Below the pieces are notes generated by a model. The model saw nothing but the letters and a program-made list of their open reading frames with translations, was not told the origin of the DNA and did no database searches. From positions 1-8,951 of IMG/VR virus record IMGVR_UViG_3300029107_000009: a stretch of DNA of 8,951 bases. One strand, written 5' to 3'. The position numbers and the translations under genes were made by a program. Below are positions 1,989-8,951 of this stretch, one piece after another. The first letter of the stretch is position 1, and the number at the start of each line of letters is the position of its first letter. The DNA is from a virus. Taxonomy: Duplodnaviria > Heunggongvirae > Uroviricota > Caudoviricetes.

Positions 1989-2002
1989 GCGGGTGCTTGA
2001 GG
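1989..2002 (+). promoter_or_regulatory. Upstream complementary box of the hok mRNA (fold-back inhibition element, 5' partner)
   Basis: GCGGGTGCTTGAGG (1989-2002) can pair antiparallel with CCTCAACGCACCCGC (2365-2379) just before the 3' terminator: 14 bp with a one-nucleotide bulge. Confidence 0.5.
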
Positions 2003-2037
2003 CTATCTGCCTCGGGCATGAACACCAACGGCAGATA

Positions 2038-2111
2038 GAGAAAAGCCCCAGTTAACATTACGCGTCCTGCAAGACGCTTAACATTAATCTGAGGCCCAAT
2101 CTATGCTTCAC
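2038..2111 (-). ncRNA. Candidate Sok-like antisense RNA (boundaries approximate)
   Basis: Minus-strand -35 TTGCCT (forward 2141-2146) and -10 TAACCT (forward 2118-2123) with a 17-nt spacer. The transcript would be antisense to the mok start codon (2103) and its SD. On the minus strand an outer 7-bp stem (forward 2045-2051 with 2089-2095, one G-U pair that is a C-A mismatch on the plus strand) encloses an inner hairpin (forward 2062-2077) and is followed by UUUUCUC. Confidence 0.3.
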
Positions 2112-2315
2112 AAACGTAGGTTAGCCTCTTACGTGCCGAAAGGCAAGGAGAAGCAGGCTATGAAGCAGCAAAAGGCGATGTTAATCGCCCTGATCGTCAT
2201 CTGTTTAACCGTCATAGTGACGGCACTGGTAACGAGGAAAGACCTCTGCGAGGTACGAATCCGAACCGGCCAGACGGAGGTCGCTGTCTTCACAGCTTAC
2301 GAACCTGAGGAGTAA
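2103..2315 (+). CDS. Mok-like ORF: in-frame 19-codon N-terminal extension of hok
   Basis: 70-aa ORF MLHKRRLASYVPKGKEKQA + Hok sequence, in frame with hokD as in chromosomal mok/hok annotations; GAGG lies 10 nt upstream of ATG 2103. Confidence 0.45.
   Translation: MLHKRRLASYVPKGKEKQAMKQQKAMLIALIVICLTVIVTALVTRKDLCEVRIRTGQTEVAVFTAYEPEE
2160..2315 (+). CDS. hokD: Hok-family type I toxin (HokD/RelF-like, 51 aa)
   Basis: Product MKQQKAMLIALIVICLTVIVTALVTRKDLCEVRIRTGQTEVAVFTAYEPEE matches the Hok/Gef family and my recollection of E. coli HokD (RelF). SD AAGGAG at 9 nt; N-terminal TM helix and conserved Cys. Confidence 0.9.
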   Translation: MKQQKAMLIALIVICLTVIVTALVTRKDLCEVRIRTGQTEVAVFTAYEPEE

Positions 2316-2410: not shown

Positions 2411-2535
2411 ATTTTCAACGCGTTTGAAGTTCCGGACGGCGCCGGAATAGAATCAAAAACACTTAAGTAGCGCGCAGGGAGAAGAGGGATGGACCCCGAA
2501 CAGGGGAGTGCTATTTATCTGGAAGGATTCTGTTG

Positions 2536-2796
2536 ATGAAAATCGAAGAATTACGTGAAATTTTTAGTGAAGATGGCCTCTATACTGTGTGCGTTGAGAA
2601 GGGCGCTATTGTCAGCCACTGCCGTATTAAATGTTTACAGTCTCAACAAAGGAAGAGTGGAGCTGCGTTAATTCATTTGGTGGATGGGCTTGTGACGGAT
2701 GGTTTTATTTTGCGTGCAAATGAATTTGTCACATCGTTGCCGTCTCTGAAAGAAGCTGGGATTAAGGCTGGTTTTTCTGCTTTTGAAGATGAGTGA
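2536..2796 (+). CDS. rem: Rem-like small prophage protein (86 aa), function unknown
   Basis: ORF with GGAAGGA at 8 nt from ATG 2536. Assigned by size and by position between hokD and the ydfU-like gene, as in the Qin prophage of E. coli K-12; I cannot verify sequence identity from memory. Confidence 0.6.
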   Translation: MKIEELREIFSEDGLYTVCVEKGAIVSHCRIKCLQSQQRKSGAALIHLVDGLVTDGFILRANEFVTSLPSLKEAGIKAGFSAFEDE

Positions 2797-2862
2797 ATTC
2801 ATCTACAATTCAGCGCAGGGCTGAACCCCTGTTGAGTAACACTGTGCCACCGGAGAAAGCCG

Positions 2863-3141
2863 ATGGCGCAAAATTCCAGACTACACAATTCTGATAATTC
2901 AGCCGTCTTTGCCAGCAGGCATGGGCGGCGTTCGCGCGTATTTAAAACCGACTGGTACCAACACCCTCCATGCACTGAAGAACAGGCCGAATGGCTGATT
3001 CAGTGCTACCGCAGGCGCGGATACGAGGTTAAAAAAGCCCTTAGCCTCGACTACCGTCACTGGATAATCTCTGTCAGACTGCCTTACTCCGAACGCCCAC
3101 CGCGTCCATCCCGCACGTACCAACAACGGATCTGGAGGTAA
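2863..3141 (+). CDS. Hypothetical protein (92 aa), translationally coupled to the ydfU-like gene
   Basis: ATG 2863 with GGAG at 7 nt; the stop TAA 3139-3141 lies inside the RBS/start region of the next gene. Basic product with no recognised motif. Confidence 0.45.
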   Translation: MAQNSRLHNSDNSAVFASRHGRRSRVFKTDWYQHPPCTEEQAEWLIQCYRRRGYEVKKALSLDYRHWIISVRLPYSERPPRPSRTYQQRIWR

Positions 3142-3142
3142 C

Positions 3143-4192
3143 GTGAGGGTATTACTTCGACCTGTTCTGGTGCCGGAACTCGGGCTGGTGGTCCTTAAGC
3201 CAGGTCGTGAATCCATGCAGGTATTTCACAATCCCCGGGTGCTGGTGGCGCCTGAACCAAAAAGCATGCGCGCTCTGCCGTCAGGACCTGTTCCTGCTGT
3301 TAGCCAGCTGCTGGCAGAGGATAAAACATTACTGCCATTTTTCAGCGACGAACGAGTGATTCGTGCTGCTGGCGGCGCTGGTGCACTGTCTGACTGGCTG
3401 TTGCGCCATGTTAAATCCTGCCAGTGGCCACACGGCGACTATCACCACAGTGAAACCGTCATTCACCGTTATGGCGCTGGCGCGATGGTGTTGTGCTGGC
3501 ACTGCGACAACCAGCTGCGTGACCAGACATCCGAATCACTCGAGCAACTTGCTCATCAAAATCTGTCAGCATGGATGATTGACGTCATACGCCATGCAAT
3601 GAATGGCACGCAGGAGAGGGAGTTATCGCTGGCTGAATTATCCTGGTGGGCGGTCTGCAATCAAGTGGCGGACGCGCTTCCGGAGGCAGTATTACGTCGT
3701 TCTCTGGGGTTACGTGCGGAAAAAATCCGCTCAATGTACCGTGAAAGCGACATCGTACCGGGAGAGCAGACCGCCACCAGCATACTGAAGCAGCGCACAA
3801 AAAATCTTGCGCAGTTGCTTCACACCCACCAGCCACAGAACCCAGCACAGGAAAAGCAGGTGGTCAGCATTGCCGTTGATCCGGAGTCTCCGGAATCTTT
3901 CATGAGGCGACCTAAACGTCGCCGTTGGGTAAATGAGAAATATACGCGCTGGGTGAAGACACAGCCGTGTGCGTGTTGTGGTCAACCAGCCGACGATCCC
4001 CATCACCTGATTGGTCACGGTCAGGGAGGGATGGGAACAAAGGCCCACGATATTTTCACGCTACCGTTGTGCCGGGAACATCACAACGAACTTCATGCGG
4101 ATCCGCTGGCGTTCGAAGAAAAGCATGGTTCTCAGGTTGATTTAATTTTTCGTTTTCTTGATCACGCCTTTGCAACCGGCGTGCTTGGGTAA
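3143..4192 (+). CDS. ydfU: DUF968-family prophage protein (YdfU-like, 349 aa) with a C-terminal Cys/His-rich HNH-like motif
   Basis: GTG 3143 with GGAGG at 4 nt. The 349-aa length and the position upstream of Q match my recollection of Qin YdfU. The C-terminus contains CACCGQPADDPHHLIGHGQGG...LCREHHNELH. Confidence 0.75.
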   Translation: MRVLLRPVLVPELGLVVLKPGRESMQVFHNPRVLVAPEPKSMRALPSGPVPAVSQLLAEDKTLLPFFSDERVIRAAGGAGALSDWLLRHVKSCQWPHGDYHHSETVIHRYGAGAMVLCWHCDNQLRDQTSESLEQLAHQNLSAWMIDVIRHAMNGTQERELSLAELSWWAVCNQVADALPEAVLRRSLGLRAEKIRSMYRESDIVPGEQTATSILKQRTKNLAQLLHTHQPQNPAQEKQVVSIAVDPESPESFMRRPKRRRWVNEKYTRWVKTQPCACCGQPADDPHHLIGHGQGGMGTKAHDIFTLPLCREHHNELHADPLAFEEKHGSQVDLIFRFLDHAFATGVLG

Positions 4193-4204
4193 AAGAGGTT
4201 ACTG

Positions 4205-4564
4205 ATGCGTATAGAGTTTGTTTTGCCTTACCCGCCGACGGTGAATACCTACTGGCGACGTCATGGCAATACGTATTTCATCTCGGAGGCCGGAAAGCGT
4301 TATCGCCATGATGTGGCGCTAATTGTTCGCCAGCAGCGGTTGAAATTAAACCTGTCCGGAAGGCTGGCGATAAAGATTATTGCAGAGCCACCGGATAAGC
4401 GCCGTCGTGACCTGGACAATATCCTGAAAGCACCACTAGATGCGCTGACGCATGCCGGACTACTCATAGACGACGAGCAGTTTGATGAAATCAATATTGT
4501 GCGCGGTCAGCTCGTTCCTGGTGGGCGGCTGGGGATAAAAATCACAGAACTGGAGTGCGCATGA
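4205..4564 (+). CDS. rusA: RusA-type Holliday junction resolvase (119 aa)
   Basis: Product contains PDKRRRDLDN..LDALTHAG, closely resembling the RusA acidic catalytic-core motif (PDRRRRDLDN..FDALTKAG as I recall it). AAGAGG at 6 nt from ATG 4205. Confidence 0.85.
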   Translation: MRIEFVLPYPPTVNTYWRRHGNTYFISEAGKRYRHDVALIVRQQRLKLNLSGRLAIKIIAEPPDKRRRDLDNILKAPLDALTHAGLLIDDEQFDEINIVRGQLVPGGRLGIKITELECA

Positions 4565-5250
4565 ATAACCAGTATTTACAGTTTGTGCGTGAGCAGCTCA
4601 TTATCGCCACCGCTGATTTGAGTGGGGCAACAAAAGGTCAGCTTGAAGCCTGGCAGGAGAATGCCATGTTCGATACAGGGCGTTACAGGCGAAAAAAAAT
4701 CCGGTACCGCGATGAAGTGACTGGAAAAATGATAACGCGGAATAATCAACCAATCCCGGGAAAGCAATCGCTGGCGAAGGGGACGTCAATTCCTCTGGTC
4801 AGTCCGGTTGAGTTTTCGACATCATCGTGGCGGCGGGCTGTTCTGTCTCTTGAAGAACATCATAAAGCCTGGTTGTTGTGGTGTTACAGCGGGAGTATTT
4901 GTTGGGAATATCAGATCGCTATAACACAGTGGGCGTGGAATGAATTTAATACTCAATCCGGTACCAGAAAAATTGCAGGGAAAACGCAGGAACGCCTGAA
5001 AAAATTAATCTGGCTGGCGGCGCAGGCAGTAAAAGCAGAACTTTTTGGTGGGGAAGGTTATGAATACCAGGATCTGGCATTACTGGCGGGAGTGACAACT
5101 AAAAACTGGTCCAAAACATTTACTCGTCACTGGGTTGCAATGAAACACATTTTTCAACGACTGGATAGTGAGGCTTTATTGTTTGTAATGAGAACACGTT
5201 CAAAACAAAAGGCGGCATTTTCAAAGCAAAATGTTGCAAAAGTAGATTGA
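4561..5250 (+). CDS. Putative late-gene antiterminator Q-like protein (229 aa from ATG 4561)
   Basis: ATG 4561 overlaps the rusA stop (ATGA) with GGAG at 5 nt. Lies immediately upstream of a strong promoter plus terminator and the lysis genes, which is the canonical Q position. Assignment is positional; no Q family motif recognised with certainty. Confidence 0.55.
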   Translation: MNNQYLQFVREQLIIATADLSGATKGQLEAWQENAMFDTGRYRRKKIRYRDEVTGKMITRNNQPIPGKQSLAKGTSIPLVSPVEFSTSSWRRAVLSLEEHHKAWLLWCYSGSICWEYQIAITQWAWNEFNTQSGTRKIAGKTQERLKKLIWLAAQAVKAELFGGEGYEYQDLALLAGVTTKNWSKTFTRHWVAMKHIFQRLDSEALLFVMRTRSKQKAAFSKQNVAKVD

Positions 5251-5262
5251 AAGGCATATATT
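5234..5262 (+). promoter_or_regulatory. Candidate late promoter (PR-prime-like), overlapping the 3' end of the Q gene
   Basis: -35 TTGCAA (5234-5239), 17-nt spacer, -10 TATATT (5257-5262). Confidence 0.5.
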
Positions 5263-5316
5263 TCATGCAAATCTGATATTTTGCCGATTTTGTACGTGAT
5301 GGCAAAAGCAAACAAA

Positions 5317-5340
5317 ACCCGCCCACAAGCGGGTTTTTTT
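5317..5340 (+). terminator. Rho-independent terminator (tR-prime-like) about 70 nt downstream of the late promoter
   Basis: ACCCGC-CCACAA-GCGGGT stem-loop followed by TTTTTTT. Confidence 0.75.
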
Positions 5341-5422
5341 GTGCCACTTATCTCGGATAGACATGGTGAATGCGCTGGTGGAGGAAGTAAGGGTGATTTT
5401 TAACCAGGTGATTTTTGAATGC

Positions 5423-5451
5423 TTGCAACATTGATTTCGTAACGTTATTAT
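5423..5451 (+). promoter_or_regulatory. Candidate promoter of the tRNA cluster
   Basis: -35 TTGCAA (5423-5428), 17-nt spacer, -10 TATTAT (5446-5451); AT-rich upstream region; the first tRNA begins 10 nt after the -10. Confidence 0.45.
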
Positions 5452-5460
5452 CCTGCGCCC

Positions 5461-5536
5461 GGCCCTTTAGCTCAGTGGTGAGAGCGAGCGACTCATAATC
5501 GCCAGGTCGCTGGTTCAAATCCAGCAAGGGCCACCA
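5461..5536 (+). tRNA. tRNA with CAU anticodon, ileX/ileZ-like (Ile2 type after lysidine modification, or elongator Met)
   Basis: 76 nt; acceptor GGCCCTT/AAGGGCC; D-arm GCTCAGTGGTGAGAGC; anticodon loop CTCATAA; T-loop TTCAAAT; encoded CCA. Resembles E. coli ileX from memory. Confidence 0.8.
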
Positions 5537-5537
5537 A

Positions 5538-5614
5538 CCGCCACTAGCTCATCAGGAAAGAGCGTCAACCCTTTAAGTTGAGTGTGCGAGGTTCGAGTCC
5601 CCGGTGGCGGTCCA
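5538..5614 (+). tRNA. tRNA-like gene with atypical anticodon loop CCTTTAA (anticodon UUU if canonically numbered, but C at position 33)
   Basis: 77 nt; acceptor CCGCCAC/GTGGCGG; anticodon stem TCAAC/GTTGA; T-loop TTCGAGT with one A-C mismatch in the T-stem; encoded CCA. Confidence 0.55.
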
Positions 5615-5616
5615 GT

Positions 5617-5692
<76 letters not shown>

Positions 5693-5695
5693 TAT

Positions 5696-5770
<75 letters not shown>

Positions 5771-6129
5771 GAGAAACAAGCCTTATTGTATTGCGGCACT
5801 GGCGTATTTTTTTATTACGTGGGAGCAGGTTGTTTTGAAAAAGCATTCTGTTCTCTGGCTATGATTTGAGGCCGGGTGTAGCCTCAGTGCTGATTTTTTT
5901 ACGGCAGCAGAATGGTGCATTATCGGTGGAGGTTTTGTATTTCCTGGCAGGGTCGGTGATGCATCATTCTGGTGTTGTAAAAGCACCGCAGAGGCGTTCC
6001 TCAGTACGAGGGTGGTTTAAAGAGTCGGTTTAGCGGGAAACCACAGTGTCCATACAGAACGGAATACTTCGGGAGGCACCCGACGCCTCGATTATATTAC
6101 AATTAAAAATTCATCCCTTGCATTGACCA

Positions 6130-6155
6130 ACCGCCATATCTGGCGGTTTTTTTTT
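6130..6155 (+). terminator. Strong rho-independent terminator in the non-coding gap
   Basis: ACCGCCA-TATC-TGGCGGT followed by nine T residues. Confidence 0.8.
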
Positions 6156-6400
6156 ATTCCTTTCTCAGAACAAAAAAAGACACGAGCATCCAGGAATACT
6201 CGTGGGACAACGTCCTTTGGATAGCAATTTGCGAGAGGGTGAAAAGTAGCGCGGTCGTCGGATTAAGACCGCGGGACAAAGTCCATGAAGAATAATAAGT
6301 ATTGGCCCCCTTCCGGGGACATGTTCATACTACTAAGCTTCAGAAGTGGTTTAAATACTCAAATTAACCTTAATTTCCGATAAGTCTTATTTCATTTCTT

Positions 6401-6503
6401 TGCGCCACATCTGGCGCGCATCAAATAACGCCACGCAAAGGGCATCTGCGGATGCCGGTGCTTTTGACGGGGTGTTTTTACGGGCCGCTGGTGGCCCTTT
6501 TTT
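6401..6503 (+). promoter_or_regulatory. Structured leader upstream of the holin gene: three consecutive GC hairpins, the last followed by a T-tract
   Basis: Hairpins TGCGCCA-CATC-TGGCGCG (6401-6418), GGCATC-TGCG-GATGCC (6441-6456) and GGGCC-GCTGGT-GGCCC + TTTTTT (6482-6503), directly before the holin RBS. Confidence 0.4.
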
Positions 6504-6522
6504 ATTTACAGGAGAAAAAAGT

Positions 6523-6915
6523 ATGTCTGAACCCTTATCCGGTTCCGGCACGGCTGCGGCGCTCGGTGGGGCGACGGTGTACGGGCTGTTTACCGGAACG
6601 GATTTCGGGATTGTGTTTGGTGCGTTCGCCGGGGCGTTATTTGTGGCAACGATGCCGCAGGCGCTTTCAGCCTGGCGTGTGGCAGCACATTTTCTGGTGT
6701 CGTTCATTATCGGCGTTCTGGGCGCAGAAGTTCTGGCATCCTGGCTGGTAAAGCATACAGGGTTTGACGGTGCACCTGTCGACGCATTGTGTGCAGTACT
6801 GGTGTCAGTGGTGTCGGTGAAGATTCTCTCGTTCATCCACCAGCAGGATATAGCATCACTGGTGTCCGGTCTGTTCTCCCGCCTGCGGGGCGGAGGAGGC
6901 GGCAATGTTAAGTAA
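6523..6915 (+). CDS. Putative holin (130 aa, multi-TM membrane protein)
   Basis: ATG 6523 with AGGAG at 8 nt. Product has several Gly/Ala-rich hydrophobic segments and a charged C-terminus; first gene of a three-gene lysis cassette. Confidence 0.65.
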   Translation: MSEPLSGSGTAAALGGATVYGLFTGTDFGIVFGAFAGALFVATMPQALSAWRVAAHFLVSFIIGVLGAEVLASWLVKHTGFDGAPVDALCAVLVSVVSVKILSFIHQQDIASLVSGLFSRLRGGGGGNVK

Positions 6916-7180
6916 CCTTCCTGGATTGCTGAATGTGGCGTTATGCACGGTTATCGTGCTGACGCTCTTTTTTTATCGTCGCCGTGATTCCAGACATAAA
7001 CCGCTGGTGTCATGGCTGGCCTGGCTGCTGATGCTGCTTTATGCCTTTGCACCACTCAGCTATCTGTGTGGTCGCCCGTTAGCAACGGGCTGGCTGGAAG
7101 TGTTTTTTAACCTGCTGTTCTGCGTGCTGGTAATACGCGCACGCGGGAACGTCACAAAAATCTTTCCATTGTTGAGGTGA
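6905..7180 (+). CDS. Membrane protein of the lysis cassette (91 aa, about three TM segments)
   Basis: ATG 6905 with GGAGGAGG at 5 nt, overlapping the holin stop by 11 nt; hydrophobic product; stop overlaps the endolysin start region. Confidence 0.6.
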   Translation: MLSNLPGLLNVALCTVIVLTLFFYRRRDSRHKPLVSWLAWLLMLLYAFAPLSYLCGRPLATGWLEVFFNLLFCVLVIRARGNVTKIFPLLR

Positions 7181-7182
7181 AT

Positions 7183-7560
7183 ATGTCGGGTAAATTCAGA
7201 TTCAGCCGTCGCAGTGAAAAAAATCTGGAGGGCGTCAAACCACAGCTGGTTGCTGTCGTTCGCCGTGCGCTGGAGCTGACGGAGGTTGATTTCGGTATTA
7301 CGGAAGGCCTGCGCAGTAAGTATCGCCAGAAACAGCTGGTCGCGGAAGGGAAAAGCCAGACCATGAACAGCCGCCACCTGACCGGTGATGCTGTGGATGT
7401 TGTGGCTTATGTTGGCAGCCAGGTGTCATGGGACTGGCCTCTGTACGAGAAAATCGCGCAGGCATTTAAGCAGGCTGCCGCAGAGCTGGGGACTGCCATC
7501 GAATGGGGCGGGGACTGGAAAACACTGAAAGACGGACCTCACTTTCAGTTGAAACGATAA
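7183..7560 (+). CDS. Endolysin, peptidase M15 (VanY / L-alanyl-D-glutamate peptidase-like), 125 aa from ATG 7183 (alternative GTG 7177)
   Basis: Product carries SRHLTGDAVDV, which matches the zinc-binding SxHxxGxAxD signature of M15-type cell-wall peptidases; GAGG upstream; follows the holin-like genes. Confidence 0.75.
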   Translation: MSGKFRFSRRSEKNLEGVKPQLVAVVRRALELTEVDFGITEGLRSKYRQKQLVAEGKSQTMNSRHLTGDAVDVVAYVGSQVSWDWPLYEKIAQAFKQAAAELGTAIEWGGDWKTLKDGPHFQLKR

Positions 7561-7572
7561 GCAAAACAAAAC

Positions 7573-7600
7573 CCCCGCAGCTGGAACAGTCCGGGGTTTT
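7573..7600 (+). terminator. Probable terminator after the endolysin gene
   Basis: CCCCG...CGGGG stem with a 14-nt loop followed by TTTT; weaker than the other terminators in the window. Confidence 0.4.
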
Positions 7601-7831
7601 TAGTTTTCACGCCATGAAAAGGAACAATAAGTTGCAAAACAGCATGAGGTGAGGAAATTGTGAACAGTGAGTACGGGGAAAATCCTCGTGGGAAAGTATA
7701 AAAGATTCTTTTTGAGGTTGTCCATTATGAAAGGTATTGAAGTGGAAACTCCCGCGAGCCTTGATTTGACAAGGGCTGCGGCCTTTGCATGGCGGTCGCT
7801 GTTCTGATTTGGGCTGTGCGTTGGTGGTGAC

Positions 7832-8014
7832 ATGAGCAGAAAACACTGGACACACAGAATGCCTCGAGCGGCGGCGAAAAGGGCACTGGTAGCGATACTG
7901 GTGCCTTTTTTATTGGTGGGCTGCGTTAGCCTGGATAAGGCGCGCCAACTTTTAGATACAGCTTCTCAGGTCTGCAAAATTGTCGACAGTGTCCAGCAGT
8001 GTATGCAGAACTGA
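7832..8014 (+). CDS. Small lipoprotein (60 aa precursor; lipobox LVGC; 30-aa mature peptide with three Cys)
   Basis: ATG 7832; basic N-terminus, hydrophobic stretch LVAILVPFLLVG, then Cys: a signal peptidase II-type pattern. No overlapping Rz-like ORF. Confidence 0.5.
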   Translation: MSRKHWTHRMPRAAAKRALVAILVPFLLVGCVSLDKARQLLDTASQVCKIVDSVQQCMQN

Positions 8015-8041
8015 GCTTTGCATTTGGATGGTGCGAGTAAC

Positions 8042-8067
8042 AAAAAACGGTCAATTGACCGGTTGAT
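8042..8067 (-). terminator. Rho-independent terminator for the minus-strand gene (perfect palindrome, possibly bidirectional)
   Basis: CGGTCAATTGACCG palindrome (8048-8061) followed on the minus strand by UUUUUUG, 12 nt after the minus-strand stop codon. Confidence 0.6.
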
Positions 8068-8073
8068 TAGCGT

Positions 8074-8253
8074 TTAACGTTTGCTGTCTGGAGTTCGTTT
8101 TACAGGTACCCATGTAGCACCCGGCTTTGATGTCGGGGGAGCCGTATGGTTATCAGGAATGGTGGTGTAATTGTTTGTCGTGCCACCACGTGGGCCTTGT
8201 TGACGGTAAACGCCACCATCTTTGCCACTATTTTCACCTGGTTTTAAAGCCAT
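8074..8253 (-). CDS. Hypothetical Gly/Pro/Thr-rich hydrophilic protein (59 aa), opposite-strand moron
   Basis: ATG at 8253 on the minus strand with AGGGA SD at 7 nt; own terminator; product MALKPGENSGKDGGVYRQQGPRGGTTNNYTTIPDNHTAPPTSKPGATWVPVKRTPDSKR. The track's longer ORF to 8322 starts at TTG with no SD. Confidence 0.5.
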   Translation of the reverse strand: MALKPGENSGKDGGVYRQQGPRGGTTNNYTTIPDNHTAPPTSKPGATWVPVKRTPDSKR

Positions 8254-8414
8254 GCTAGTCCCTTTTATTAAAGTCACGATTGTGTGACAAGGTGAGTATT
8301 GGTCGTATAAGTGAAAAGACAAGATGAAATTTTTTCATGAGCCATCTGTTAGTTCATCTTAAGCACATTCTGGAAATGTGAGCTGATATTTACGGGAGTT
8401 AGAGGAAATTAACA

Positions 8415-8765
8415 ATGCCCCTGCGAACCCCAAAAGTCTGCCGTGTTCGCGGTTGCCGCCATACCACGACTGACCCGTCAGGCTACTGCGAAAGCCACAA
8501 AAGCGAAGGCTGGAAGCAATACAAACCTGGACAATCCCGTCATCAGCGCGGCTACGGTTCGAAGTGGGACAGTATCCGCGTGCGCATATTGAAGCGTGAC
8601 AAAGGCCTGTGTCAGTTATGTCTGCGTGCTGGTGTGGTGCGTGAGGCGAAAACCGTTGACCACATCATCCCTAAAGCGCATGGCGGCACTGATGCCGACA
8701 GTAATCTGCAGAGTCTGTGCTGGCCGTGTCATAAGGCGAAGACGGCCCGTGAATGGCTGAAGTAA
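8415..8765 (+). CDS. HNH endonuclease (116 aa), packaging-associated type
   Basis: Product has CxxC...HK...DHIIPKAHGGTDADSNLQSLCWPCHKAK, a classic HNH motif. GAGGAA SD. Sits immediately upstream of the terminase small subunit, as in HK97-like phages. Confidence 0.85.
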   Translation: MPLRTPKVCRVRGCRHTTTDPSGYCESHKSEGWKQYKPGQSRHQRGYGSKWDSIRVRILKRDKGLCQLCLRAGVVREAKTVDHIIPKAHGGTDADSNLQSLCWPCHKAKTAREWLK

Positions 8766-8791
8766 GAACCAGTTCCCACTGCCAGAGGGGA

Positions 8792-8851
8792 GGGGCGGGT
8801 CAAATCCCTGTGACCTGACGTCTTCCGGACTGCCCGCCCCATCGTTTTTTT
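8792..8851 (+). repeat. GC-rich inverted repeat (GGGGCGGG ... CCCGCCCC) followed by a T-tract; candidate cos/packaging element or terminator
   Basis: 8-bp perfect inverted repeat (8792-8799 with 8833-8840) separated by 33 bp, then ATCGTTTTTTT; lies between the HNH and terminase genes. Confidence 0.4.
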
Positions 8852-8890
8852 ATACCCGCGAAAAATGAAATTTAACCAGGAGTGCCGCAT

Positions 8891-8951
8891 ATGGCTGGAA
8901 CGGCGGGGCGTTCCGGGCGTCGCCCCAAGCCAACGGCGCGCAAGGCGCTGG
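8891..8951 (+). CDS. Terminase small subunit, N-terminal fragment (runs off the window)
   Basis: ATG 8891 with AGGAG at 8 nt; N-terminus MAGTAGRSGRRPKPTARKAL is typical of P27-family small terminase subunits; follows the HNH gene. Confidence 0.7.
   Translation, partial: MAGTAGRSGRRPKPTARKAL

What the first reader, a model, noticed from the sequence alone, without database searches (positions are those of the whole stretch)
8766..8890. GC-rich inverted repeat with a T-tract between the HNH endonuclease and the terminase small subunit
The arrangement of an HNH gene, an intergenic element and a small terminase subunit is where cos lies in HK97-like phages, which makes this the prime candidate for the packaging site of the prophage. 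The same element could instead be an intrinsic terminator: an 8-bp G/C stem with a long loop and a T-run. The two readings make different predictions.
Basis: inference. Interest (0 to 1): 0.4.

Follow-up and report, generated by a model that had tools for sequence, protein, structure and literature searches.

The report
Prophage cos packaging site, already mapped
The GC-rich inverted repeat between the HNH nuclease gene and the small terminase gene is the cos site where this HK97-like prophage cuts its DNA for packaging; the same sequence was mapped experimentally in Shigella phage SfI, so the finding is correct but ordinary.

Summary
GGGGCGGG (8792-8799) and CCCGCCCC (8833-8840) form a perfect 8-bp inverted repeat with a 33-nt loop; a T7 run follows at 8845-8851.

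The cos reading is supported. The intergenic region is almost identical in phages SfI, SfV, SfIV, SfII and ST64B. SfI virion ends were mapped by run-off sequencing to a 10-nt gap, TGCCCGCCCC, which is window 8831-8840. The cohesive end is therefore the right arm of the repeat plus TG.

Eighteen representative cos sites next to HNH genes, including HK97, D3 and Bacillus phage Gamma, share one layout:
- a G-box (8787-8799) and a TCAAATC heptamer (8800-8806);
- about 24 bp ending in AC (8807-8830);
- a C-rich 9-10-nt end, then an A/T-tract region.

The left half travels with the HNH gene and the right half with the small terminase gene.

The 8-bp pairing is not conserved outside the SfV group. 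The T-run is kept where no stem exists. The terminator reading is therefore unsupported, though not excluded as a secondary role.

Novelty: already known. The fixed-distance G-box and the AC|YG nick motif are the only possibly new details.

The parts
8415..8765 (+). HNH endonuclease gene (116 aa) with an N-terminal zinc ribbon (CRVRGC...CESH). It is the packaging-associated nickase partner of terminase.
   Evidence: Pfam HNH PF01844, E 2e-16. 36% identity to HK97 gp74 over 69 aa. End-to-end match to the GVE2 HNH endonuclease 5h0m (E 5e-12). 35% identity to the phage Gamma HNH (H76).
8787..8799 (+). G-box GGGGAGGGGCGGG. Its last 8 nt are the left arm of the inverted repeat. It is a conserved upstream cos element; a role like lambda cosQ is inferred.
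   Evidence: A G-run of this type lies at the same position in all 18 representative cos sites, including HK97, D3, Klebsiella, Vibrio, Moraxella, Burkholderia, Bacillus Gamma, Paenibacillus and Streptomyces phages.
8800..8806 (+). Heptamer TCAAATC directly after the G-box.
   Evidence: The consensus across the 18 representatives is TCAAAtc. G-box plus heptamer is present in 76/80 window-type loci and 76/80 HK97-type loci.
8807..8830 (+). 24-bp spacer ending in GGAC. The predicted bottom-strand nick lies between 8830 and 8831 (AC|TG).
   Evidence: The spacer is 24 nt in the window, HK97 and the Klebsiella types, and 23-25 nt in Vibrio, D3 and Paenibacillus. AC|YG lies within 1 nt of this position in 16/18 representatives. 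Related HNH nickases cut at AC^CG, with AC^TG as a star site (PMC3592412).
8831..8840 (+). Cohesive-end sequence TGCCCGCCCC, analogous to cosN. It is inferred to be a 10-nt 3' single-stranded extension. The right arm of the inverted repeat is 8833-8840. The predicted top-strand nick lies between 8840 and 8841.
   Evidence: Identical to the 10-nt gap found by run-off sequencing of SfI virion DNA (PMC3636060). The SfI record ends at the base equivalent to 8840. The position aligns with the HK97 10-nt 3' end CGCCGCCAAA and with the D3 end.
8845..8851 (+). T7 tract. It is part of the downstream half of cos (an A/T tract), not primarily a terminator tail.
   Evidence: A T-tract 3-6 nt after the cohesive end is present in most of the proteobacterial cos types sampled, including ones without the 8-bp stem: Kp4884-1, Kp4875-4, L269, Vibrio K311, D3 and Mcat18. 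HK97, BgVeeders33 and the Gram-positive representatives have none at that offset. In HK97 the T/A tract sits at +24 to +29 and is essential for TerS binding (PMC11331095).
8852..8875 (+). ATACCCGCGAAAAATGAAATTTAA, the putative TerS recognition region (analogous to cosB). The core ACCCGCGAAAAA is 8854-8865.
   Evidence: This half co-varies with the TerS type and not with the HNH type. Window versus Kp4884-1: right half 37/40, TerS 88%, HNH 66%. L093 versus L094: HNH 89%, right half 15/40, TerS 32%. It resembles the HK97 TerS site CTAACCCGATTTTTT at +15 to +29.
8878..8951 (+). Ribosome-binding site AGGAG (8878-8882) and the start of the small terminase gene (ATG 8891), cut off by the end of the window.
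   Evidence: Read from the sequence. In L286, which is 100% identical to the window, the gene is 164 aa and matches PF05119 Terminase_4. RefSeq annotates the E. coli homologues as 'phage terminase small subunit P27 family'.

Best explanation
Region 8787-8875 is the cos (cohesive end) site of an SfV/SfI-type lambdoid prophage that has an HK97-like, HNH-dependent packaging machine.

What is shown or follows by sequence identity:
- During packaging, concatemeric DNA is cut here to give virion DNA with the 10-nt end TGCCCGCCCC (8831-8840). This was shown for SfI, and the window has the identical sequence.
- A 3'-protruding polarity is inferred. The SfI run-off reads left a gap rather than an overlap, and the aligned HK97 end is a 10-nt 3' overhang.

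The site has three parts.
1. Upstream module, which travels with the HNH gene: the G-box GGGGAGGGGCGGG, the heptamer TCAAATC and a 24-bp spacer ending in AC. I infer that it positions or triggers cutting at termination, much as lambda cosQ does, because it lies on the last-packaged side of the cut.
2. The nick sites. I infer that the bottom strand is cut at AC|TG (8830/8831) by the HNH nickase, whose relatives cut AC^CG. I infer that the top strand is cut 10 nt downstream (8840/8841) by TerL.
3. Downstream module, which travels with the TerS gene: T7 plus ATACCCGCGAAAAA. I infer that this is the TerS binding site, by analogy with the mapped HK97 site at +15 to +29.

The 8-bp inverted repeat arises because the G-box and the C-rich cohesive end happen to be complementary in this lineage. 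The pairing itself is probably not the functional feature.
For: -: SfI, SfV, SfIV, SfII and ST64B carry the same intergenic sequence. The SfI record ends at the base equivalent to 8840.
- (PMC3636060): SfI virion termini were mapped to a 10-nt gap, TGCCCGCCCC.
- HK97 has 10-nt 3' overhangs. Its record ends GAC-CGCCGCCAAA, and its TerS site is at +15 to +29.
- the G-box, the heptamer, a spacer of about 24 nt, AC|YG and a C-rich end are conserved in 18 representative cos types from Proteobacteria, Firmicutes and Actinobacteria.
- the HNH and TerL proteins are homologous to HK97 gp74 and gp2. An HK97-type head module lies downstream.
- the left half plus the cohesive end co-vary with HNH, and the right half co-varies with TerS. 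Natural recombinants have breakpoints at the cohesive end.
- homologous zinc-ribbon HNH enzymes nick at AC^CG, with AC^TG as a star site.
- gp74 binds TerL and stimulates cos cleavage.
Against: - No virion DNA from this particular prophage has been examined, so it could be defective.
- The SfV and SfIV records are linearised 17 bp further upstream (8823|8824), and I could not read the SfV paper to see why.
- The 3' polarity for SfI is my inference from the word 'gap'.
- HK97 gp74 is described as a non-specific nuclease with no known nicking specificity.
- In vitro, gp74 only stimulates cleavage by terminase. Assigning the bottom-strand nick to HNH is therefore unproven.
- SfV-type TerS shows no sequence similarity to HK97 TerS, so the resemblance between their sites may be coincidence.
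- No experiment bears on the G-box. The HK97 TerS binding assays used fragments from -20 to +80, which exclude it.
Confidence: 0.9

Rival explanations
1. The element is an intrinsic (Rho-independent) terminator. The RNA hairpin 8792-8840 plus the U7 tail would stop transcripts leaving the lysis/HNH genes, either instead of or in addition to cos function. For example, it could insulate the head genes in the lysogen and be overridden by Q antitermination in lytic growth.
For: An 8-bp all-G/C stem with further pairing inside the loop gives about -24 kcal/mol for 8792-8840. A U7 run follows. The window encodes a Q antiterminator at 4555-5250, which could read through such a site.
Against: - The loop is 33 nt and 4 nt (AUCG) separate the stem from the U-run, so the terminator scan does not report it. 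Canonical terminators in the same window have 4-nt loops and adjacent T-runs.
- Folding energy is not clearly better than shuffles: z -0.78 for the region and -1.49 for the core.
- The in-register stem is absent from the HK97, Klebsiella, D3 and Burkholderia cos sites (2-4 of 8 pairs). No compensatory double changes were seen.
- A T-tract in the same position is kept in relatives without the 8-bp stem (Klebsiella, L269, Vibrio K311, D3, Mcat18), and the ST64B-type variant shortens it to AATTTTT.
- Lambdoid late transcription must cross cos to reach the head genes (established lambda biology; my own knowledge).
Confidence: 0.1
2. The inverted repeat itself is the functional unit within cos. The two arms would be extruded as a hairpin or cruciform, or bound symmetrically by a dimeric protein, to mark the cleavage site.
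For: The repeat is perfect and conserved in about 75 loci of the SfV/SfI type. The only arm changes seen keep G-T wobble pairing: GGGGTGGG in one locus and CCCGCCTC in another. D3 (GGGGCG/CGCCCC) and Vibrio K311 (GGGGTG/CACCCC) also show 6-bp complementarity between the G-box and the cohesive end, slightly out of register.
Against: In register, only 2-4 of 8 positions pair in the HK97, Klebsiella, Burkholderia and D3 cos types. A G-run and a C-rich end will often be partly complementary by composition alone. The nick sites (8830/31 and 8840/41) are not symmetric about the centre of the repeat (about 8816). The sequence around the nicks has no two-fold symmetry.
Confidence: 0.12
3. The site is a relic: a correct cos sequence in a prophage that can no longer be induced or packaged, so it has no present function in this genome.
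For: Nothing in the window shows inducibility. The window holds only the late-gene part of the prophage. Many enterobacterial prophages are defective (general knowledge).
Against: L286 and L289 are 100% identical to the window over the shared 6.5 kb. They continue into intact-looking genes for TerS (164 aa), TerL (577 aa), portal, S78 protease, capsid and connector. The cos core is identical to that of the viable phages SfI and SfIV.
Confidence: 0.15

Closest known systems
cos of Shigella flexneri serotype-converting phages SfI, SfV, SfIV and SfII (also Salmonella ST64B)
   Same: The 10-nt cohesive end TGCCCGCCCC is identical. The sequence from the G-box to the terS start codon is nearly identical. 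The HNH-cos-TerS(P27 family)-TerL order is the same.
   Different: About 20 nt just after the HNH stop codon come in two variants. The rest of the prophage (Q region, tRNAs, lysis genes) differs. The window's 7600-8396 segment is not found in complete E. coli genomes. No termini have been mapped for this prophage itself.
cos of coliphage HK97 (HNH gp74-dependent, 10-nt 3' overhang)
   Same: The gene order is HNH-cos-TerS-TerL. The HNH and TerL proteins are homologous. Both have a G-run plus TCAAATC, then exactly 24 nt ending in GAC, then a C-rich 10-mer. Downstream, both have an ACCCG motif followed by a homopolymer A/T tract.
   Different: The cohesive end is CGCCGCCAAA, not TGCCCGCCCC. There is no inverted repeat between the G-box and the end (3 of 8 in register). 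The TerS proteins show no detectable sequence similarity. The HK97 intergenic region is about 320 nt long, against 125 nt here.
Bacteriophage lambda cos (cosQ-cosN-cosB)
   Same: The tripartite logic matches: an element upstream of the nicks on the last-packaged side, the nick site itself, and a TerS binding region downstream next to the TerS gene. This rests on established lambda biology (my own knowledge) and on cosQ references cited in PMC10359639 and PMC11331095.
   Different: Lambda has 12-nt 5' overhangs, gpNu1/gpA terminase and IHF, and no HNH protein. Its sequences are unrelated. The cosQ-like role of the G-box here is only an inference.
Recognition sites of cos-adjacent zinc-ribbon HNH nickases (N.phiGamma, N.phiE2/GVE2)
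   Same: The window HNH aligns end to end with GVE2 HNHE. Those enzymes nick CG^GT, which is AC^CG on the other strand, with AC^TG as a star site. The predicted bottom-strand nick here is AC|TG, and it is AC|CG in most relatives.
   Different: Those specificities were measured on plasmid DNA, outside a terminase complex and for Gram-positive phage enzymes. The specificity of this enzyme is untested.
Intrinsic (Rho-independent) terminators
   Same: A G/C-rich stem followed by a T-run on the coding strand at the end of a gene.
   Different: The loop is 33 nt, a 4-nt gap precedes the T-run, the scan does not detect it, and neither covariation nor conservation of the stem is seen across related cos sites.

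Membership tests
SfV/SfI-group cos site | 10-nt cohesive-end sequence TGCCCGCCCC with conserved flanks | tested here: met
   Window 8831-8840 is identical to the SfI cos 10-mer. The sequence from the G-box to the terS ATG matches SfIV exactly and differs from SfI and SfV by 1-2 bases.
SfV/SfI-group cos site | Virion DNA ends map to this site | not testable with these tools
   This was shown for SfI by run-off sequencing (PMC3636060). No virion data exist for this prophage.
HK97-type HNH-dependent cos packaging system | cos lies between an HNH endonuclease gene and the small terminase gene | tested here: met
   HNH 8415-8765 (PF01844). terS starts at 8891. The HK97 and D3 records show the same layout.
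HK97-type HNH-dependent cos packaging system | The large terminase and the HNH protein are homologous to HK97 gp2 and gp74 | tested here: met
   TerL of SfI (the same type as in L286) versus HK97 gp2: 26% identity over 522 aa, E 1e-30. HNH versus gp74: 36% over 69 aa, E 3e-11.
HK97-type HNH-dependent cos packaging system | 10-nt 3'-protruding cohesive ends | tested here: inconclusive
   The length of 10 nt comes from SfI. The 3' polarity is inferred from the 'gap' in the run-off reads and from alignment with the HK97 end. It was not measured directly.
HK97-type HNH-dependent cos packaging system | TerS binding site with an essential A/T tract about 15-30 bp downstream of the cut | tested here: inconclusive
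   ACCCGCGAAAAA at +14 to +25 resembles HK97 ACCCGATTTTTT at +18 to +29. The right half co-varies with TerS type. However, the TerS proteins show no sequence similarity, and there are no binding data.
HK97-type HNH-dependent cos packaging system | HK97-like head module downstream (portal, S78 protease, HK97-fold capsid) | tested here: met
   L286, which is 100% identical to the window, carries PF04860, PF04586 and PF05065 genes after TerL.
Rho-independent terminator | Compact G/C-rich hairpin with a short loop (about 3-8 nt) | tested here: not met
   The loop is 33 nt. The element is not among the 19 terminator-like sites found in the window.
Rho-independent terminator | U-tract within 0-2 nt of the stem | tested here: not met
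   Four bases (ATCG) separate the stem from T7. In the ST64B-type variant the tail is CTCGAATTTTT.
Rho-independent terminator | Stem maintained by selection (covariation or conservation among relatives) | tested here: not met
   No compensatory double substitutions were seen. Only 2-4 of 8 in-register pairs form in other cos types, although they keep the G-box and, in the Klebsiella, L269, Vibrio, D3 and Moraxella types, the T-tract.
Lambda-type cos | 12-nt 5' overhang and gpNu1/gpA-type terminase | tested here: not met
   TerS is PF05119 Terminase_4 and TerL is PF03354/PF20441. The end is 10 nt long and inferred to be 3'-protruding.

The most novel reading that the evidence does not exclude
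The left arm of the repeat belongs to a deeply conserved cos signal that I did not find described in the papers I could search. The signal is a G-box (consensus GGGGaGGGGgGGG) plus a TCAAAtc heptamer, placed about 24 bp upstream of an AC|YG nick. It is shared by HNH-associated cos phages with 3' overhangs from Proteobacteria (HK97, SfV, D3), Firmicutes (Bacillus Gamma, Paenibacillus) and Actinobacteria (Streptomyces). If functional, it would be the cosQ-like or measuring element that fixes where the HNH nickase cuts the bottom strand, with TerL cutting the top strand 9-10 nt downstream. That would settle the open question of which nuclease cuts which strand in HK97-type packaging.
Probability: 0.4. 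Interest if true: 0.55.

Novelty: already known. Interest (0 to 1): 0.27.

Why it matters
For this genome, the result fixes where packaging starts and ends: virion ends are predicted at 8830/8831 and 8840/8841. That helps in predicting prophage integrity, transduction behaviour and the orientation of the phage map.

More generally, the comparison gives a concrete, testable anatomy for HNH-dependent cos sites. An upstream module (G-box, heptamer, 24-bp spacer, AC|YG) is inherited with the HNH gene. A downstream module is inherited with the small terminase gene. Natural recombination joints lie at the cohesive end.

This bears on a question the HK97 structural papers leave open: whether gp74 or TerL makes each of the two staggered nicks (PMC11331095). 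It also offers a sequence signature for finding cos sites in prophages that have 3'-overhang packaging systems.

Tried and rejected
1. tRNA-like or other RNA element. The motif GGGTCAAATCCC looks like a tRNA T-arm. ARAGORN found tRNAs only at 5461-5770, and Rfam at E<=10 gave no hit in 8766-8890. Rejected.

2. Promoter. No sigma-70-like site was found in the region.

3. Terminator. See the rival explanations.

4. Covariation of the stem. The in-register pair count across about 70 distinct cos variants shows that the stem is specific to the SfV type. The apparent compensatory change in Vibrio K311 (GGGGTG/CACCCC) is out of register and is a single case.

5. Global correlation of left and right half identity with HNH and TerS identity. 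Spearman values were right-TerS 0.70, right-HNH 0.51, left-HNH 0.49 and left-TerS 0.41. Group structure and start-codon calls blur this, so I rely on the four explicit recombinant pairs.

6. Literature. The SfV genome paper (J Bacteriol 2002) and Kala et al. 2014 (PMC4000778) are not held. Searches for the motif strings and for 'G-rich' together with cos and HNH found no description of the G-box.

7. E. coli complete genomes. Only the HNH-cos-terS part matches, in 1412 of 5426 genomes at 94-97% identity. The source is therefore not a complete RefSeq E. coli genome. The exact source contigs were found through the HNH protein instead.

8. Solved structures. There is no solved relative of the SfV-type TerS by sequence, so the analogy with the HK97 TerS-DNA structure could not be tested.

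9. Minus-strand ORF 8729-8890 (53 aa). It spans the whole site and was treated as spurious. It was not tested further.

Full report
**Observation.** Region 8766-8890 is exactly the gap between two genes.
- Upstream is a 116-aa HNH endonuclease ORF at 8415-8765 (PF01844, E 2e-16).
- Downstream is the start of a small terminase (TerS) ORF. Its ATG is at 8891, it reads MAGTAGRSGRRPKPTARKAL, and it is cut by the end of the window.
- The gap holds GGGGCGGG (8792-8799) and CCCGCCCC (8833-8840), which are 8/8 complementary and 33 nt apart. ATCG and a T7 run (8845-8851) follow.
- It is the only all-G/C perfect 8-bp inverted repeat with a 3-40-nt loop in the window. Dinucleotide shuffles of the window give 0.03 on average. 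Of shuffles of the 125-nt region, 5.7% contain some perfect 8-bp inverted repeat.

**Context.** The window is the late region of a lambdoid prophage. It contains:
- a hok/sok-like locus (Rfam sok, 113 bits, 1991-2165);
- DUF968 and RusA genes and a Q antiterminator (4555-5250);
- four tRNA genes (5461-5770);
- two holin-family genes and an M15 endolysin;
- then HNH, the element in question, and terS.

The HNH protein occurs with exactly this sequence in NCBI assemblies. Loci L286 and L289 are 100% identical to window 2415-8950. They continue with TerS (164 aa, PF05119 Terminase_4), TerL (577 aa), portal, S78 prohead protease, an HK97-fold capsid protein and a connector. The packaging and head module is therefore HK97-like and looks intact.

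**Direct identification.** Megablast against phage records shows the HNH-intergenic-terS stretch at 84-95% identity in Shigella phages SfI, SfIV, SfV and SfII, in Salmonella ST64B and in others.
- Joining the record ends shows that the whole element, from the G-rich box to the terS ATG, is essentially the same sequence in all of them.
- The linear SfI record ends at the base equivalent to window 8840.
- The SfI paper reports direct sequencing of virion DNA ends from primers in the HNH and terS genes. Compared with the prophage, it found 'a 10 nucleotide (5'-TGCCCGCCCC-3') gap', and it concluded that packaging is cos-type (PMC3636060). The SfIV paper states that the cos site is identical in SfI, SfII, SfV and SfIV (PMC3851460).
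- TGCCCGCCCC occurs once in the window, at 8831-8840. The cohesive end is thus the right arm of the repeat plus the preceding TG.
- A gap in both run-off reads, rather than an overlap, is what a 3' overhang produces. This is my inference.

**Comparison with HK97.**
- The HK97 genome record ends ...GGGGGGGGA TCAAATC ttcaaaacctttgccccaaatgac CGCCGCCAAA and begins GTTTGAATTTAACGCTAACCCGATTTTTTTAG.
- HK97 ends carry 10-nt 3' overhangs (PMC9410871).
- Its TerS binds positions +15 to +29, CTAACCCGATTTTTT, where the C:G pair at position 21 and the A/T tract are essential (PMC11331095).
- The window reads GGGGCGGG TCAAATC, then 24 nt ending in GGAC, then TGCCCGCCCC, then ATCG TTTTTTT ATACCCGCGAAAAAT.
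- Both therefore have the same G-run and heptamer, the same 24-nt spacing to the 10-mer, and a similar ACCCG-plus-homopolymer motif downstream.
- The HNH proteins are homologous (36% over 69 aa) and so are the TerL proteins (26% over 522 aa, E 1e-30). The TerS proteins show no detectable similarity.

**Wider survey.** I collected loci around relatives of the HNH proteins of the window, HK97, Vibrio K311, Burkholderia BgVeeders33, Bacillus Gamma and a Streptomyces phage. I also took the ends of linear records that finish at cos: D3, Gamma, Dragolir and Sebastisaurus.

An anchored alignment of 18 representative cos types gives this consensus: GGGGaGGGGgGGG, TCAAAtc, 24 nt ending in ggAC, then cgCCgCCcca.

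Examples:
- D3: GGGGTGGGGCGGG TCAAAAC ...ggacac|CGCGCCCCCA, at the end of the record.
- Bacillus phage Gamma: GGGTAGGGGCGGG TCGAAAA ...ccgtac|CGCCGCCCC. The record's last 10 nt are annotated 'cos site'.
- Bacillales prophages carry the same 13-mer as the window, GGGGAGGGGCGGG, followed by TCAAAAA.

Counts:
- G-box plus heptamer is present in 76/80 window-type loci and 76/80 HK97-type loci.
- In the Gamma group it is present downstream of HNH in 20/44 loci, against 4 control hits in 112 kb.
- AC|YG lies within 1 nt of the 24-nt position in 16 of the 18 representatives. The chance expectation for three positions is about 2% per sequence, although the sequences are not independent.

**Is the repeat itself functional?**
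- In register, all 8 pairs form only in the SfV/SfI/ST64B/window type.
- Two variants have one G-T in place of G-C, and none has a compensatory double change.
- The HK97, Klebsiella, Burkholderia and D3 types form 2-4 of 8 pairs.
- The G-box and the C-rich end are each conserved in their own right. Their complementarity in this lineage looks like a by-product.
- The nicks are not symmetric about the centre of the repeat.

**Modularity.**

| Pair | HNH identity | Left half | Cohesive end | Right half | TerS identity |
|---|---|---|---|---|---|
| Window vs Klebsiella phage Kp4884-1 | 66% | 27/44 | 5/10 | 37/40 | 88% |
| Kp4884-1 vs Kp4875-4 | 89% | 39/44 | 9/10 | 15/40 | 32% |
| L186 vs L188 | 97% | 42/44 | 10/10 | 16/40 | 25% |
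| L146 vs HK97 | 97% | 40/44 | 6/10 | 13/40 | 26% |

The upstream half and the cohesive end are inherited with the HNH gene. The downstream half is inherited with the TerS gene. Recombination joints lie at or inside the cohesive end. This supports reading 8845-8875 (T7 plus ATACCCGCGAAAAA...) as the TerS recognition region.

**Which nuclease cuts where (inference).**
- The window HNH has an N-terminal zinc ribbon and aligns end to end with the GVE2 HNH endonuclease (5h0m, E 5e-12). It is 35% identical to the phage Gamma enzyme.
- Those enzymes are strand-specific nickases that cut CG^GT, which is AC^CG on the other strand. AC^TG is a star site (PMC3592412).
- For a 10-nt 3' overhang, the bottom-strand nick must fall at GGAC|TGCC (8830/8831). 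That is an AC^TG site, and most relatives have AC^CG there.
- This fits the option raised for HK97 that one strand is cut by gp74 and the other by TerL (PMC11331095).
- Against it, gp74 is described as non-specific, and in vitro it only stimulates terminase cleavage.

**Role of the G-box (speculation).**
- It lies 31-44 bp upstream of the bottom-strand nick, on the DNA that enters the capsid last.
- This is the position of cosQ in lambda. cosQ is needed for nicking at termination, and its mutations are suppressed by portal mutations (references cited in PMC10359639 and PMC11331095).
- Herpesvirus pac1 is a loose parallel: a T-rich core flanked by G-rich runs, with cleavage at a fixed distance (PMC13595911).

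**Terminator reading.**
- The RNA hairpin 8792-8840 is stable (-24.3 kcal/mol).
- Against the terminator reading:
  - The loop is 33 nt.
  - The U-run starts 4 nt after the stem.
  - The scan that finds 19 terminator-like sites in the window does not report it.
  - Folding is not clearly better than shuffles (z -0.78 and -1.49).
  - The stem is not conserved across related cos sites, while in several of them (Klebsiella, L269, Vibrio, D3, Moraxella) the T-tract is.
- In HK97 the corresponding A/T tract is a demonstrated TerS-binding determinant.
- A weak terminator that Q antitermination can override remains possible as a secondary property.

**Verdict.**
- The cos interpretation is supported at high confidence by identity with an experimentally mapped site.
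- The kind of element is already known.
- The residual interest lies in the G-box and heptamer at a fixed distance, the AC|YG nick motif, and the two-module structure of HNH-associated cos sites. I did not find these described in the accessible literature. They are directly testable.

Noticed in passing
window 8787-8806; L290, L291, L292, L284, L012, L293-L316: The G-box plus TCAAATC-like heptamer upstream of the cohesive end is conserved across phyla. It appears in HK97, D3, Vibrio, Burkholderia and Moraxella phages, Bacillus Gamma, Paenibacillus Dragolir and Streptomyces phages. Some Bacillales prophages carry the same 13-mer as the window, GGGGAGGGGCGGG. What binds it is unknown.
   Followed up: partly
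L146, L093/L094, L186/L188 (IMG/VR and Klebsiella phage loci): These are natural cos mosaics. One left half (with its HNH gene) is joined to different right halves (with different TerS genes), and the breakpoints lie at or inside the 10-nt cohesive end. For example, L146 is HK97-type up to CGCCGC and then switches.
   Followed up: yes
NC_003444 (SfV) and NC_022749 (SfIV) record ends, equivalent to window 8823|8824: The SfV and SfIV GenBank records are linearised 17 bp upstream of the SfI-mapped end (8840|8841). ST64B and SfII are cut at yet other points. The record boundaries in this phage group are therefore not all true termini.
   Followed up: partly
L076 (IMGVR_UViG_2630968705_000007); several HK97-type IMG/VR contigs (L100-L111, L134-L139): Some assembled contigs stop at or within a few bases of cos. 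L076 ends at ...CTTCCGGACTG, 2 nt into the cohesive end. HK97-type genomes end at ...GACCGCCGCCAAA, and one ends at ...AAATGAC. This fits physical DNA ends at cos in the sequenced material.
   Followed up: no
window 1991-2165 (+), ORF 2103-2315: A full-length match to the Rfam sok antitoxin RNA (113 bits, E 9e-26), with an overlapping 70-aa ORF. This is a hok/sok-type toxin-antitoxin locus inside the prophage.
   Followed up: no
window 5461-5770 (+): Four tandem tRNA genes (Met-CAT, Lys-TTT, Thr-TGT, Gly-TCC) lie between the Q antiterminator gene and the lysis genes. This is the position where SfI and Stx-type phages also carry tRNAs.
   Followed up: no
window 5314-5344 and 6129-6157: Two strong canonical hairpin-plus-T-run terminators lie downstream of Q. 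The first overlaps weak sub-threshold Rfam hits (isrK, isrJ and OrzO-P types). It may be the short pR'-tR'-like transcript region on which Q acts.
   Followed up: no
window 7600-8396: This segment, which includes the minus-strand ORF 8074-8322 with no Pfam hit, has no counterpart covering it in 5426 complete E. coli genomes. The adjacent HNH-cos-terS segment occurs in 1412 of them at 94-97% identity. This is another mosaic joint just upstream of the HNH gene.
   Followed up: no
window 8729-8890 (-): A 53-aa ATG ORF on the minus strand spans the whole cos region. It is probably spurious, because conservation here follows DNA motifs rather than a reading frame. This was not tested formally.
   Followed up: no
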